Assembly (NCBI RefSeq): GCF_056746865.1
Contig: NZ_CM163382.1
Length of the DNA: 64,000 bases
Reading direction: 5' to 3' (one strand)
Positions 54,601 through 60,600 of this stretch are shown piece by piece (within the stretch, counting starts at the first letter, position 1; every line of letters starts with the position of its first letter). The position numbers were made by a program.

Positions 54601-57600
54601 AGGGACGCACCATTACTACATCTCTGAAGCCGTCAGATGTTTGTGATCTGATTTGCGCATTCATGTACCCAGCAATGAGGACTGTCCACGGCGATAAGTG
54701 GAAACTTGCGACAACCGCTGAATTTGATATGTGGCTAAACAATGATGGCATGCTGACTGATTACGGAATAACCAAGTGGCAGATGCTGGTTAGCCATATC
54801 GCAAACGCTATAGACCACGTGGGGTACGGTGATGCGAAACATTGATCTTATCCGTCAGGTTATCAGTGCGTCTGAAAACAACTGGCCTCATGTGCTGGGC
54901 TGCCTGAACATAAATGTCCCTGACTCTCCGCGCCGTCATGCTCCCTGCCCTGCATGTGGGGGCAAAGATCGATTCCGGTTCGACGACAACGGGCGCGGTA
55001 GCTTCATCTGTAATCAGTGCGGCGCTGGTGATGGGCTGGATTTAATTAAACGCGTAAATAACTGCGACACAACAGAGGCGGCGCTGCTTGCCGCTGATGT
55101 TCTTGGTATTGATTACCGGACAACAGAAACACCAGAAGCCACCAGCCAGAAACGGGAACAACTGGAAACCGAGCGCCAGCGACGCGAACAGGAGCGCCTG
55201 AAAAGGGCAGAGAAGGATGAACAACAAAGACGGGATACGTTTTCCCGTCAGTTTGATGACATGCGCAGAAAGGCTGTAAACGGCAAATCTGATTATCTGG
55301 TTGCGAAAGGGGTAGGCGATTTTACATTCCCCGTGTTGCCCGATGGATCTCTGTTGCTGGCGCTGGTGGATAAATCCGGCGCAGTCACAGCAGCACAGAC
55401 TATTACCTCACATGGTGAAAAAAGACTCCTGACAGGTTCGGCAAAGCGGGGGGCATATCACGCCATAAACGCACAGAAACGACCTCACAGCATCATAATT
55501 GCTGAGGGGGTGGCTACCGCCCTGTCGTGCCATTTAATTCGCCCTGACGCAATGACAGTGGCAGCAATCGACGCTGGCAACCTGTTGCCAGTAGCGGAAG
55601 TCATGCGCAGAACATATCCACAGGCACAAATCATCATTGCCGCAGATAACGATCACCAGCAAGGAAACTCCGAAAGTGGAGGGATCAACACGGGGAAAGA
55701 TGCCGCAGAGAGGGCCGCTATTTCCGTAGCTGGCTGGGTGTCTCTGCCACCGACTGACTATAAAGCCGACTGGAACGACTATCACCAACAACACGGGCTG
55801 GCGGCAGCCACAGCAGCATTTAAAGATTCGATGTACCAGCCACGGGGGAAAGGGGCGCAGGTGAAAAATCACAAACAGTCAGTCGGGGCGCTGAATGAGA
55901 TCAGTTCTGGCGAGGTGTTAAGCGATGATGAAATTGCTGTCCTCGAAGAAATCAACCGGACGTTTACGCATGTCACCATCGGCGGGAAACACAAGGTGGT
56001 GTCGCTAAAGCCTTCTCAAACCGGCGGTGTATCGCACGTTTTCGAGGATTTATCACAATTTCAGCATTATTTTCATCATAAACCGAGAGTCGCCAGAAAG
56101 CTGGCGGGATCGGCGTGGCTGTCATGGAGTGGGAAGAACTACAAGCCAGGAGGCGTAGGATTTTATCCAGTACCAGACAAATGCCCTGACGATGTTTTTA
56201 ATCTGTATGAGGGGCTGGCACTGGAACCAATTGAAGGAGATTGCACGGTATACCTTAATCACCTGTTGCAGGTTGTCTGTGCCGGGAATGAAGAGGCATA
56301 CCAATATCTTATCCAGTGGATGGCGCACATTATCCAAAAGCCTGATGAAAAACCGTCCGTGGCAATCGTAATGAAATCTGTCCCGGGCACAGGGAAAGGC
56401 ACAACGGTTAAACCGCTGCTGCAAATACTGGGGCAGTACGCCGCCCACATTAACGGGGCGGGACATATTTCAGGGCGCTTCAATTCAATACTTGCTAACA
56501 AGCTACTGGTATTTGCTGACGAAGTGACGATCCACAAGCCGTCTGAAGCTGACAGACTTAAAGCGATTATTAGCGAACCGACGTTTAACCTTGAGCGCAA
56601 GGGAATTGATGCTGAACCAATGCCGAATTTTGCCCGGTTGATATTTGCCAGTAACAGCACACAGGTATTACAGGCAGGGATAAGAGAGCGCCGCTATCTC
56701 GTGCTTGAGCCATCTCCTGAAAAAGCACAGAGCCGGGAGTATTTTGATCGGCTGTACAGTTGGCTTAATGATGGCGGTGCCGCAAAGTTGCTTTGGCATC
56801 TTAAAGGGGTGGATCTATCAGGTTTTGACCCTCAACGAGCGCCACAGACCGATGCCTTACGTGAAGAAATCTTGCTGGGGCTGTCTGGCGTTGAATTGTT
56901 TCTTTATGGCGAGCTAATCAATGAACCTCCGTTTAATGGCGAAGTCCGTTTGTTTGCAAAGGATATGGTTAGTCGATTTGTAGCGTGGTCGCTTGAGCGT
57001 GGGGAAAAGCTTAAAGAACCAGCAGCCAGATCACTACTGGGTAAGTCACTTGCACAAATGGGACTGGTGAAGCATGGAAGACCAGACCGTGGGAATGGCG
57101 TGTTCTACGAACTACCAGAGGTCGGAGTTCTACAGGCTGCGTTTGCCCGTCTGATCGGTATGGGGGGTTATGATGTTTTTTAATATAGTCTTTTTACAAG
57201 AAGAACGTTTTTACCTGTACCACCTATACCATTTTGCTAATTCAGTATTAAAAACAGTGCGTTACAGTGGTACAGGTCAATATCTTACCTATACCAGACC
57301 TGTACCACCTATACCATTAACAAACGCATTTCTTCTGGTTGGCTGAGAGGGAACAACCAATGATGAGCACACCATTTTACAAAGTGCGCCAGTTAGCTTC
57401 TTCCTCTGGCTGGCAGCTACGGTTTGAGGGGCGTTCAGACTGGCTACCCATTGCGGCATGGGCGAATGTTGAAATGTGTATTGACGGCGATACCGTTGAA
57501 ATCATTATTCCCTGCGTGGCAAGTCGGGACGGCTGTATAGAGCCAACAGATATGGCAGCAGAAATCAGAGAGGTAAAACATGAACAATAACTATTGCATA

Positions 57601-60600
57601 CCGCAGGGAATGACCAGAACGGAGCGCGAAGAATTAAAAAGTTTCGCTACACAGTGCGGGAATGCTGGCGACATCCAAAGTCTGGAACGCACTTTAATTA
57701 TGATTGCGCACTGGATGCGCCAGGGGCAAAGGGTTTCATTTACTGAATATGCCAGCCAGTGGACAGAGGCACAGCGCGAACGGAGCGACGGTAATCACTC
57801 AACACCCGAAATGGCGAAGCAATGGCCTTTCAGTGGTAAACGCTGTATCAGTCCCGGTGGTTCAGATTATTACCCTGCTGGTGTGGGAGATGAGCCATGT
57901 TGTGACGAGACTGAAATCCGCCACGCAGTGACAGTAATTACCGCTGAATACCCACAATTTAACCTTGACGGACTGGCGCTCCACAACCGGAATGCGGACT
58001 GGGAAAACCCGCTTGATAACCCGTCATTTATCGTATCGGCGAAAAGCTGCCTGAGATGGATCAGAGACAACGGGATGAGTAATGCCCAGATTGAGAGCTT
58101 CCCGCAGGATAACCCCACATCTGACACGTTGAAGCATGAAGTGGAGCGATATAACCAGATAAACCACCAGCACAGTGATCACCCGCACTATATCCCCAAC
58201 GGAGCATTTATTGCGGCGATGGTGGCAAGCGGCTACAAGGTTAAACCAGCGGGAAGAATGAACGCATTTTTCAATATTTCAAAAAAGGGATTATGTGCTG
58301 CTATGGGTAAAAATTAAATAAATGGTACAGGTCTGTACAGGTGGGTAGAGGTCATTTTTACCCACCTGTACCACCTGTAGGCCGCGCCACACAAGGGTTT
58401 GTGGCATGGTGGTACAGGTGGTACAGCAAAAACAGCGATTTTCTTTATAAGGTATGTTTTGCTCATCTGGCAGACGGAGGTATTCGCTGCGGTTTGGCAC
58501 ATAGCCCAGAACAGGAAAGAGTTTTACGAGACTTTTGTAAAATCCAGTGTACAAGGGCGTGACGTTTTTGAAGGTGAGCACTACGAAATTTTCGTAGTTC
58601 AAAAAATAGCCTCTGAGATGTTGTTATGCCTGTTCAGCAAACCATCCGCATAGCTGATCGCGAATCAAATTACCAATGGAGCCAGAAGCAAGGGCAGAAC
58701 TGGAAAGCGCCTGCCATGAAGAGTAATGCGACACCATAAATATAGTTTTTAGAGTCCATAAAAAACCTGTCAAAACTTGACACACAGAACGATGCCACCA
58801 GCTACTGAGCGGTGGCATTTTCTTGTGCTATTCGTTTCACATTTTGCAATGAACATGATGAATATTGCGTTTTATGAAACTATAATAACTGTTGTTTTAT
58901 ACAGTTCTAAGGGGGCGTTATGGCTATTTCAGTAAAGCCGGTATTGATAAGTGAGAAGCAAATGGAAGCGATAAAGAAAATTCAGGAAGAGCAGCGTAAA
59001 AAATCAGGAATTGGAGTAGCGCCAACTCTACATGAAATTGCACGAGGGTTAATAGATAAGGCGCTGGCAGGCTGTATGTGAAAATGGATGGCATCGCATG
59101 GAACTAAAATTTATTGATAACCCTGTGCGATTACAGGCCTTTCTTAACGATCCTGGCAATACCGAAAATATTGTTGAGCCGGGGCACACGTACTACATCA
59201 AGCCTGATGCGGTATATCTCGGCATCTACGAAGGATTGGTGCTGGCTGGCGTTCATGAAGTGCGTAACTTCTGGCATAGCATTGTTGAATGCCATGCGGT
59301 GTACGACCCCGGATTCCGTGGTGAATATGCACTGCAAGGGCATCGATTATTCTGCAAATGGCTTCTCGAAAACTCACCATTCCTTAACAGCATTACCATG
59401 GTTCCTGACACCACCAAATACGGACGGGCAATTATCCGTTTGCTTGGCGCTACCCGTGTTGGTCACCTTGATGATGCTTATATCAGATGTGGTAAACCCG
59501 TCGGCGTAACGCTTTATCAGTTAACTCGGCAACAATATAAGGAATTCAGCGAATGTTAATTACCCATATAGCTCATAAACATCTCAATCGTGCCGTATAC
59601 GAAAAAGGCGGTGATGGTGGTGCCTCTAAAGCTCAGGCGAAGGCCCAGCAGCAGGCAATTGATTTGCAGCGCGAGCAGTGGAATACGGTGATGAATAATC
59701 TCAAGCCGTATGCAGAAGTCGGATTGCCTGCTTTACAACAACTACAAGGACTGATGACTCTGGAAGGGCAGAATAAAGCCGCGAATGATTTCTTTGGTTC
59801 TGGTTTATATAAAACACAGGCAGATCAGGCCCGTTATCAGAACCTTGTCTCAGCAGAAGCTACCGGGGGGCTTGGCTCAACAGCTACCAGTAACCAGTTA
59901 TCTTCCATTGCGCCCATGCTTTATAACAATTGGCTTAGTGGGCAAATGCAAAATTATGGAAACCTGCTAAATGTCGGGATGAATGCGGCATCAGGGCAGG
60001 CAACGGCAGGGCAAAACTACGCCAATAATACCGGACAACTCTTGCAGGGGCTTGGCGCTATTCGTGCAGGTCAGGCGCAGCAGCCATCCAGTCTTGCGCG
60101 TGGTATTGGTGGGGCAGCATCAGGCGCTTTAGCGGGTGCGCAACTTGGTTCCGTTGTTCCTGGAATAGGAACTGCGGCCGGCGCTATTGGTGGTGGGCTT
60201 ATTGGTCTTGTTGGGGGGCTTGGATTCTAATGGCGACATGGCAACTTGGCGGGCTGCCTAGCATGGCACCGCAAAATGATAATGCTCCTCGTTCTTCCGT
60301 TCCTCAGCCTGTGCAGTATCAGCAGCAGCCAAACGTAGGTTTAATGGCGCTACAGGGGCTAAGAGGCGTTGCTGAGATTAATCAGCAGGCGCAAATTTCC
60401 CAGCAGCTAAAAGAATATCAGGCACGGTTGGGTAGTGCGGTAGCTAATAATGATCGTGTTGGCGTGCAGAAGTTAATGGCCCAGTATCCCCAGTTTATGG
60501 CTGATTCTCAAAAACAGATGGGATTCATTGATGCTGAGCAAAATCGGCAGACCGCTGACGCTGCCATGAATCTGCGTCTTGCGTCACAAACTGGAGATCC

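What the first reader, a model, noticed from the sequence alone, without database searches (positions are those of the whole stretch)
57205..58425. Two clusters of ACCTGTACCACCT-type repeats bracket a two-gene cassette downstream of the primase
At least six copies of the 13-bp core occur in direct and inverted orientation, clustered at 57205-57300 and 58322-58425 on either side of ORFs 57360..57590 and 57580..58317. Iterons after a primase gene suggest a replication origin, but origin iterons normally form one array and not two arrays 1 kb apart with genes between. They could instead be operator or partition sites, or recombination sites bounding an exchangeable cassette.
Basis: seen in the sequence. 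Interest (0 to 1): 0.6.

Follow-up and report, generated by a model that had tools for sequence, protein, structure and literature searches.

The report
Satellite replication origin split by two genes
The two repeat clusters are the two halves of one replication origin belonging to a phage-satellite island in E. coli; in this lineage two small genes of unknown function sit between the halves, which makes it an unusual layout of a well-known kind of origin.

Summary
A 9-bp unit, ACCTGTACC, occurs 6 times at 57213-57315 and 7 times at 58324-58428. Six of the seven exact copies in the 64-kb window lie in these two clusters.

The setting is an EcCIMP1-like phage-inducible chromosomal island (PICI) at tRNA-Thr. 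The repeats lie just 3' of a primase-helicase (Zn-ribbon, Toprim, DUF5906) whose predicted C-terminal domain is a winged helix.

In more than 20 related loci, from Enterobacterales to Methylococcaceae, the same CTGTACC-type repeats follow this helicase type. In Hafnia, Rahnella, Buttiauxella, Methylobacter and a P4-like Salmonella satellite, both clusters form one uninterrupted origin of about 250 bp. That origin aligns collinearly with window cluster 1 plus cluster 2.

Xenorhabdus has one gene (p76) between the halves. E. coli, Raoultella and Salmonella have two (p76 and p245). A helicase tree makes the split state derived.

A sister island, the EcCIMP1 type, swaps exactly the helicase half plus the origin for a DUF927 helicase with different iterons and no cassette.

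Best reading: initiator-bound iterons of a PICI/P4-type origin, split by a gene insertion. They are not operators, partition sites or cassette recombination sites. This is a new variant of a known kind, of moderate interest. No function was tested.

The parts
54829..57183 (+). Primase-helicase (Pri-Rep-like initiator), 784 aa: Zn-ribbon primase domain, Toprim, DUF5906 SF3-type helicase and a C-terminal domain.
   Evidence: Pfam finds Zn_Ribbon_Prim at 35-70, Toprim_3 at 222-323 and DUF5906 at 516-615. PHROGs calls it DNA primase. The N-terminal 330 aa are 33% identical to P4 alpha. RefSeq annotates it as intact in 139 E. coli genomes.
55854..58514 (+). Exchangeable replication-specificity module: the helicase plus winged-helix half of the primase gene, both iteron clusters and the two-gene cassette.
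   Evidence: blastn of the window against sister island L002 is collinear at 50804-55853 (94.5%) and 58515-60390 (98.5%), with nothing alignable between. L002 carries a DUF927 helicase half and GTTGGTTCA iterons instead.
56869..57156 (+). Predicted winged-helix domain (primase residues ~681-776), the proposed iteron reader.
57213..57315 (.). Iteron cluster 1 (origin half A): six 9-bp units in the order + + / spacer / - + + +.
   Evidence: It is collinear with the first half of the uninterrupted origins of L019, L020 and L021.
57231..57268 (.). A+T-rich spacer between oppositely oriented iterons; candidate melting region.
   Evidence: G+C is 0.30-0.38 over 57160-57300. This is the arrangement described for PICI and SaPI origins (PMC6092414, PMC9371898). 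Melting is inferred, not shown.
57360..57590 (+). p76, a 76-aa ORF of unknown function lying between the origin halves.
   Evidence: It is conserved at 42-86% amino-acid identity in Raoultella, Pantoea and Xenorhabdus, always immediately after cluster 1. There are no PHROG, NCBIfam or PADLOC hits.
57580..58317 (+). p245, a 245-aa ORF of unknown function whose start overlaps the p76 stop by 11 nt.
58324..58428 (.). Iteron cluster 2 (origin half B): seven 9-bp units in the order - - - + + / hairpin / - -.
   Evidence: The order of exact copies (-, +, -, -) and their 42/45/9 spacing compare with 32/45/9 in Hafnia L020. It is collinear with the second half of the uninterrupted origins.
58386..58405 (.). 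Small G+C-rich hairpin (GCCACA / TGTGGC) between iterons of cluster 2.
   Evidence: Read from the sequence. A GCCGCGCCA...TGGC-type element sits at the same place in most related origins. Its function is unknown.

Best explanation
The two clusters are the iterons of the island's own replication origin. The island is an EcCIMP1-like PICI at tRNA-Thr.

Its primase-helicase is proposed to bind the 9-bp ACCTGTACC units through its C-terminal winged-helix domain. It would then melt the adjacent A+T-rich DNA, load itself as a helicase and prime synthesis, as shown for the SaPI Rep/PriRep proteins and, for the pri-rep-ori segment as a whole, for EcCICFT073.

The two clusters are the two halves (A and B) of one ancestral ~250-bp origin. 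In the clade that includes E. coli, genes were inserted into the short linker between the halves. Here these are p76 and p245, which move the halves about 1 kb apart.

Both halves remain under sequence constraint, so they probably still act together. This would happen by initiator-mediated looping, as proposed for P4 ori and crr.

Shown here: the repeats and their statistics, their co-inheritance with the helicase half, collinearity with unsplit origins, and the derived position of the split state. Inferred: binding by the winged helix, melting, looping, and any continued need for half B.
For: 1. Position and form. The iterons start 30 bp after the primase-helicase stop, with oppositely oriented sets around an A+T-rich spacer. 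This is the layout reported for Gram-negative PICI and SaPI origins (PMC6092414; PMC9371898).

2. Co-inheritance. CTGTACC, or a close variant (CTATACC, CTGTTCC), is the most enriched or a top-three 7-mer downstream of this helicase type in most of the related loci scanned, at helicase identities down to 34%.

3. Module swap. The sister island L002, the EcCIMP1 type, is collinear up to primase codon ~342 and again from 58515. Between those points it has a DUF927 helicase half, GTTGGTTCA iterons and no cassette.

4. The repeats do not follow the cassette. L003 has a 67%-identical p245 homologue beside a RepA helicase and has no CTGTACC cluster. Unsplit loci have iterons but neither p76 nor p245.

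5. Collinearity. Window cluster 1 plus cluster 2 aligns unit for unit with the uninterrupted origins of Hafnia, Rahnella, Buttiauxella and a P4-like Salmonella satellite.

6. Constraint. Across 10 origins, iteron columns are 79.5% identical pairwise against 37% for the other non-coding columns.

7. Polarity. In an NJ tree of the helicase half, all split loci form one clade nested among three unsplit lineages.

8. The C-terminal domain is predicted to be a winged helix.
Against: Nothing here is a functional test: there is no replication assay, no binding assay and no mapped initiation site.

Two loci inside the split clade keep cluster 1 only, namely L032 (Enterobacter, intact primase) and L011 (Pantoea, the primase match starts at residue 308). 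Half B is therefore either dispensable or lost in decaying islands.

Cluster 1 alone already has the canonical 'iterons flanking A+T' form.

p245 has a weak winged-helix-like fold match, so a second DNA-binding protein at these sites cannot be excluded.

The winged-helix call rests on a model with pLDDT 50-65 in its first 70 residues.

Islands with this module also carry an orphan DUF927-type iteron set near perC, so the island's replication history is complex.
Confidence: 0.75

Rival explanations
1. Cluster 1 is the complete origin. Cluster 2 is not part of initiation but acts as a negative copy-number control or handcuffing/titration locus, like P1 incA or F incC, or it is a vestige.
For: Cluster 1 alone has oppositely oriented iterons around an A+T-rich spacer. 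L032 and L011, nested in the split clade, have lost cluster 2, and L032 keeps an intact primase. From my own knowledge, P1 and F have iteron sets flanking a ~1-kb gene with the distal set used for control.
Against: In every unsplit relative, half B sits 17-25 bp from half A as one compact unit and is as conserved as half A. The gene between the clusters is not the initiator: p245 has no Rep_3 or other Pfam match and no RepE/RepA-like fold match.
Confidence: 0.15
2. The repeats are operators. The primase-helicase or a cassette protein binds them to control transcription into and out of p76-p245.
For: Cluster 1 lies between the primase stop and the p76 start, with no terminator predicted between them. 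An initiator bound there could block read-through. This could coexist with origin function.
Against: The same repeat architecture is present where there is no cassette to regulate. No promoter-like site was found in either cluster. The repeats are absent next to the p245 homologue in L003.
Confidence: 0.05
3. The repeats are binding sites for p245, which has a weak winged-helix-like domain. For example, they could be a partition or centromere-like site, or a site for a replication accessory protein.
Against: Iterons occur without p245 in at least 12 loci. In Xenorhabdus, p245 lies outside the clusters. L003 has p245 without the repeats. No ParA/ParB-like genes were seen in the annotated tables of the matching islands.
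Confidence: 0.03
4. The clusters are recombination sites or terminal inverted repeats bounding a mobile, exchangeable gene cassette.
For: The outermost units are inverted relative to each other: 23 nt at 87% complementarity here and 19 nt at 100% in L006. The gap holds 0, 1 or 2 genes in different lineages.
Against: The gap only ever holds the same genes, p76 alone or p76 plus p245. The repeats exist with nothing between them. No recombinase is associated and no target duplication was seen. The exchanged unit between sister islands is the helicase half plus the whole origin, not the cassette.
Confidence: 0.02

Closest known systems
PICI/SaPI replication origins (EcCICFT073 pri-rep-ori; SaPI1, SaPI5 PriRep5)
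   Same: The origin lies immediately 3' of a (fused) primase-helicase initiator. It has short iterons in opposite orientations around an A+T-rich region. The initiator has a C-terminal winged helix. The island has int, an AlpA-type regulator, unidirectional genes and perC (PMC6092414, PMC9371898).
   Different: Here the iterons form two blocks 1 kb apart with two genes between them. The units are 9 bp rather than 5-6 bp. The helicase is a DUF5906 type for which I found no published origin description in the searched library. No replication test exists for this module.
Satellite phage P4: alpha protein with ori and crr
   Same: The alpha-like N-terminal primase domain is 33% identical. An iteron-bearing cis element sits directly after the primase gene, as crr does in P4, and the same iterons occur in two separated places. 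A P4-like Salmonella satellite (L030) uses this very helicase and iteron type.
   Different: The helicase and DNA-binding half is not alignable to alpha. P4 crr is two 120-bp direct repeats and lies 4.7 kb from ori. Here the two blocks are non-identical halves of one origin that is contiguous in relatives. No third, remote cluster exists in the window.
EcCIMP1 (E. coli MP1 PICI mobilised by the P22-like phage Kapi1)
   Same: Same island family and the same tRNA-Thr/proA site, with the same antirepressor/Ash genes and P22-like DUF2824/ejection-protein genes. Excision and transfer were shown experimentally (PMC11773190).
   Different: EcCIMP1 carries the DUF927 helicase half with GTTGGTTCA iterons in one compact origin and no p76/p245. 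The paper's main text contains neither 'origin of replication' nor 'iteron'.
Iteron plasmids P1 (incC-repA-incA), F (ori2-repE-incC) and R6K (own knowledge)
   Same: Two iteron sets are separated by about 1 kb of coding DNA, and the sets communicate through initiator-mediated looping or pairing.
   Different: In those plasmids the gene between the sets is the Rep_3-type initiator and the iterons are 19-22 bp. Here the initiator is upstream, p245 shows no Rep_3 similarity, and the units are 9 bp.

Membership tests
PICI/SaPI-type origin | Located immediately 3' of the replication initiator (pri-rep) gene | tested here: met
   The first iteron starts 30 bp after the primase-helicase stop at 57183.
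PICI/SaPI-type origin | Two sets of short iterons in opposite orientation flanking an A+T-rich region | tested here: met
   Cluster 1 reads + + / 38-bp spacer in a region of G+C 0.30-0.38 / -. The whole unit has further inverted sets in cluster 2.
PICI/SaPI-type origin | Compact single unit of roughly 300 bp or less | tested here: not met
   Here the iterons span 1216 bp with two ORFs inside. The feature is met in the unsplit relatives L019-L023 and L030.
PICI/SaPI-type origin | Cognate initiator has a C-terminal winged-helix domain that reads the iterons | tested here: inconclusive
   A winged-helix fold is predicted and the iterons co-vary with the helicase half. Binding itself was not tested.
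PICI/SaPI-type origin | Initiator-dependent replication of a plasmid carrying the ori | not testable with these tools
   This needs the thermosensitive-vector assay of PMC6092414.
PICI (island type) | Integrase, AlpA-type regulator, pri-rep, unidirectional transcription, no full phage structural or lysis set | tested here: met
   Annotated tables of near-identical islands L001 and L033. The same family as EcCIMP1, which is helper-inducible.
P4 ori/crr system | Alpha-family primase-helicase-origin binder | tested here: inconclusive
   The N-terminal primase domain is homologous (33%, E 1e-40) but the C-terminal half is not alignable. TIGR01613 scores only 20 bits against a cutoff of 108.7.
P4 ori/crr system | crr made of two 120-bp direct repeats, plus a separate ori several kb away with the same iterons | tested here: not met
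   The two clusters are not direct repeats of each other. There is no further cluster in the 64 kb. The P4 layout was read from its record.
P4 ori/crr system | Both cis elements required for replication | not testable with these tools
   Indirect evidence only: cluster 2 is conserved but lost in L032 and L011.
Rep_3 iteron plasmid replicon (P1/F type) | The gene between the iteron sets encodes the iteron-binding Rep_3 initiator | tested here: not met
Mobile cassette bounded by recombination sites | The same boundaries enclosing different cargo, with an associated recombinase | tested here: not met
   The gap holds nothing, p76, or p76 plus p245, and never other genes, across the related loci examined. 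The repeats exist with no cargo.

The most novel reading that the evidence does not exclude
The linker between the two origin halves is a tolerated, and perhaps favoured, slot for genes. On this reading the two halves still cooperate by initiator-mediated looping over 1 kb. p76 and p245 would then be an origin-embedded accessory or copy-control pair whose expression or dosage is gated by initiator occupancy of the flanking iterons. The natural series of 17-25 bp, about 300 bp and about 1 kb between the halves would make the distance tolerance of a self-loading primase-helicase origin directly testable.
Probability: 0.15. Interest if true: 0.6.

Novelty: new variant of a known kind. Interest (0 to 1): 0.42.

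Why it matters
PICI and P4-type satellites replicate with self-loading primase-helicases that recognise iterons next to their own gene. How the iteron sets must be arranged for melting and double-hexamer loading is not settled.

This family offers a ready-made natural experiment. The same conserved origin occurs uninterrupted, split by ~300 bp and split by ~1 kb, and some descendants keep only half A.

It also defines the origin and specificity module of one of the Pri-Rep variants seen in E. coli islands, and of a widespread EcCIMP1-like island whose replication has not been described in the papers I searched.

For annotation, it flags that the 61-62-aa genes called across cluster 1 in two relatives are probably spurious. 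It also suggests that p76 and p245 belong to the replication module rather than to cargo.

Tried and rejected
- Rfam. The scan of 56800-59300 gave only a sub-threshold miRNA hit, treated as chance.
- Promoters and terminators. The scan found no promoter-like site in either cluster and no terminator between the primase and the cassette.
- Viral contigs. An exact-pattern scan for GGTACAGNTGGTACAG returned 120 loci, none encoding the helicase half, p76 or p245. Most multi-hit loci have same-strand hits spaced in multiples of 3 or 9 bp, which I read as coding Gly-Thr-Gly-type repeats without checking. One locus, L039, has an origin-like mixed-orientation cluster with no such primase and was not pursued.
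- Other clusters in the window. The 1-mismatch groupings at 43979 and 50070 were inspected and dismissed.
- p245 as a Rep_3-like initiator, by analogy with P1 and F: rejected on Pfam and fold evidence.
- Literature. A search for the iteron sequence listed only unrelated papers among the ten shown of 117.
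Full report
**1. The observation**

The region 56900-58800 was read directly. CCTGTACCACCT with up to 2 mismatches occurs 9 times in the window against 2.6 expected, and no shuffle of 100 reaches 9. Seven of the nine lie at 57214-57310 and 58320-58427. The 8-mer CCTGTACC occurs 10 times against 0.9 expected, six of them in the two clusters.

Repeat finding and a 9-mer scan show that the real unit is 9 bp, ACCTGTACC, often tandem at 9-10 bp.
- Cluster 1 has six units: 57213+, 57222+, a 38-bp spacer, 57269-, 57287+, 57298+, 57307+.
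- Cluster 2 has seven units: 58324-, 58334-, 58344-, 58364+, 58373+, a G+C-rich hairpin at 58386-58405, 58411-, 58420-.

Six of the seven exact 9-mers in 64 kb are here.

**2. Context**

The upstream ORF 54829-57183 is a 784-aa primase-helicase with Zn_Ribbon_Prim, Toprim_3 and DUF5906 domains and PHROG 'DNA primase' hits.

The region is 99% identical to chromosomal islands in 139 of 5426 complete E. coli genomes. In ETEC H10407 and strain MDR_56 the annotated island sits at tRNA-Thr next to proA. It reads: integrase, HTH regulator, AntA/B antirepressor, DUF4222, Ash, small ORFs, primase-helicase, two hypothetical genes, DUF2824 and P22-like ejection proteins, then perC.

This is the island family of EcCIMP1, a PICI shown to be excised and transferred by the P22-like phage Kapi1 (PMC11773190; locus L034). 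The only phage DNA matches of more than 40 bp to the window stretch are the ejection/head genes of Kapi1 and related phages.

**3. The repeats follow the helicase half, not the cassette**

A distant blastn search showed about 400 further E. coli genomes that share only the DNA from 58515 onward. One of them, L002, and EcCIMP1 itself have the same left arm. They carry a 'TOPRIM and DUF927' primase followed at once by a compact origin: GTTGGTTCA x3, about 36 bp of A+T-rich DNA, then TGAACCAAC x3, with no two-gene cassette.

Direct blastn places the breakpoints at window 55853/55854 (primase codon ~342, between Toprim and helicase) and 58514/58515. Consistently, the DUF927 protein shares 85% identity over only the N-terminal 45%. 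The exchanged unit is therefore the helicase plus C-terminal domain plus the whole repeat-bearing stretch.

Conversely, L003 has a 67%-identical p245 homologue beside a RepA-family helicase, with different A+T-rich GTGAG repeats and no CTGTACC cluster.

**4. Relatives show one origin**

Homologues of p245 and of the primase were traced to their contigs. A profile of 24 primases recovered 20 more genomic loci. Positions of CTGTACC relative to the primase stop were then tabulated, and the most enriched 7-mers downstream were derived without a prior motif.

CTGTACC or a close variant (CTATACC, CTGTTCC) is a top-three enriched word in most of the loci with this helicase type, at helicase identities down to 34%.

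- Unsplit: in Hafnia (L020), Rahnella (L021), Buttiauxella (L019, L013, L014), Methylobacter and Methylomonas (L022, L023) and a P4-like Salmonella satellite with delta and psu genes (L030), all units lie in one stretch of ~200-270 bp with no ORF inside.
- One gene: in Xenorhabdus the first block is followed by p76, then the second block, then p245 where present (L010; L008 has degenerate first-block units).
- Two genes: in E. coli, Raoultella (L004), an unidentified enterobacterial contig (L006) and Salmonella (L029), both p76 and p245 lie between the blocks.

A MAFFT alignment of window cluster 1 joined to cluster 2 with the uninterrupted origins is collinear unit for unit. The insertion point lies between ...CTATACCatt (57317) and aaatGGTACAGG (58322). 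Across ten origins, columns at the window's iterons are 79.5% identical pairwise against 37% for the other non-coding columns, so both halves are constrained as sequence.

**5. Polarity**

An NJ tree of the last 400 residues of the primase-helicase puts all split loci in one clade. Its members are the Xenorhabdus one-gene type, the E. coli/Raoultella/Salmonella two-gene type, and two loci that keep only cluster 1. That clade is nested among three unsplit lineages. The unsplit origin is therefore ancestral, and the genes entered the linker once.

The position of p245 relative to half B changed later. Half B was lost in L032 (Enterobacter, primase intact) and L011 (Pantoea, primase match starts at residue 308).

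**6. The likely reader of the iterons**

SaPI Rep and PriRep proteins read their iterons with a C-terminal winged helix (PMC9371898). Gram-negative PICIs are reported to have an origin 3' of pri-rep with two iteron sets around an A+T-rich region, and that origin was shown functional for EcCICFT073 (PMC6092414).

P4 alpha is homologous only in the primase domain (33%). The P4 record places crr directly after the alpha gene and ori 4.7 kb away, both carrying the same type 1 repeats.

**7. The cassette**

p76 and p245 are real genes. They are conserved across genera, their reading frames overlap, and the p245 model is confident at pLDDT 88.5. Their function is unknown: there are no Pfam, PHROG, NCBIfam, PADLOC or PDB sequence matches.

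No terminator is predicted between the primase and p76. Three unsplit relatives have a hairpin followed by a T-run, read by eye as a terminator, before the origin. The cassette is therefore probably read through from the primase operon; this is inference.

In L004, L006 and L029 the next gene after half B is an SSB, which fits a replication neighbourhood.

**8. Verdict**

The repeats are iterons of a PICI/P4-type origin specific to the DUF5906 helicase variant. The two-cluster layout is a derived split of one compact origin by insertion of p76 alone or p76 plus p245.

Whether half B is still needed, and whether the halves communicate by looping, is inferred from conservation and from the P4, P1, F and R6K precedents (my own knowledge). 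The loss of half B in L032 and L011 cautions against assuming it is essential.

The operator, partition and recombination-site readings are disfavoured, because the same repeats occur with no cassette and the cassette occurs without the repeats.

This is a new variant of a known kind. It is useful as a natural spacing series but not a new mechanism.

Noticed in passing
L034 9854-9973 and 18394-18513; L001 19133-19243; L033 21928-22047 (would fall about 4 kb beyond the window end): The DUF927-type origin (3 x TTGGTTCA, A+T-rich DNA, 3 x TGAACCAA) occurs twice in EcCIMP1, in inverted orientation. One copy follows the primase and one lies just upstream of perC, about 8.4 kb away, so they flank the ejection-protein module. 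The perC-proximal copy is also present as an orphan in islands carrying the DUF5906 module, which have no DUF927 helicase.
   Followed up: partly
window 59098-61549: The island encodes homologues of P22-type head-completion and ejection proteins: DUF2824/phrog_651, phrog_598 'DNA ejection', and phrog_917/2534. They are ~90% identical in DNA to the helper-type phage Kapi1. It is unusual for a satellite to carry ejection-protein genes. In H10407 one has an internal stop, and in MDR_56 one is interrupted by IS1203.
   Followed up: partly
window 55853/55854: The left recombination breakpoint between sister islands falls inside the primase gene, at about codon 342 between the Toprim and helicase domains. 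One primase domain is therefore combined with at least three different helicase and origin-binding halves: DUF5906, DUF927, and DUF5906 with D5_N and Pox_D5.
   Followed up: yes
window 58515-59098: About 580 bp with only a 53-aa ORF annotated is conserved at 94-98% in more than 500 E. coli genomes regardless of replication module. It contains an inverted repeat (TACGAGACTTTTGTA / TACGAAATTTTCGTA) and a terminator-like hairpin at 58801-58816. It may be a regulatory region for the ejection-gene operon.
   Followed up: no
window 58386-58405, and the same position in L006, L014, L019, L020, L023: A small G+C-rich element (GCCGCGCCA ... TGGC, with hairpin potential and loops that vary between loci) sits between iterons of half B in most related origins. 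Its role is unknown.
   Followed up: no
L006 5595-5780; L032 5749-5937: Genes of 61-62 aa are called across iteron cluster 1 in two related contigs. They overlap the conserved iterons and are probably spurious calls.
   Followed up: no
L003 6607-7019: An island with a RepA-family helicase has a 400-bp A+T-rich intergenic region with GTGAG-type repeats, followed by a 257-aa p245 homologue and a ProQ/FinO gene. p245 therefore travels with at least two unrelated replication modules.
   Followed up: partly
L039 5251-5582: A viral contig has ten CTGTACC units in mixed orientation in a 920-bp intergenic region but no detectable DUF5906 helicase nearby. It may be an origin for a different initiator with similar specificity.
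   Followed up: no
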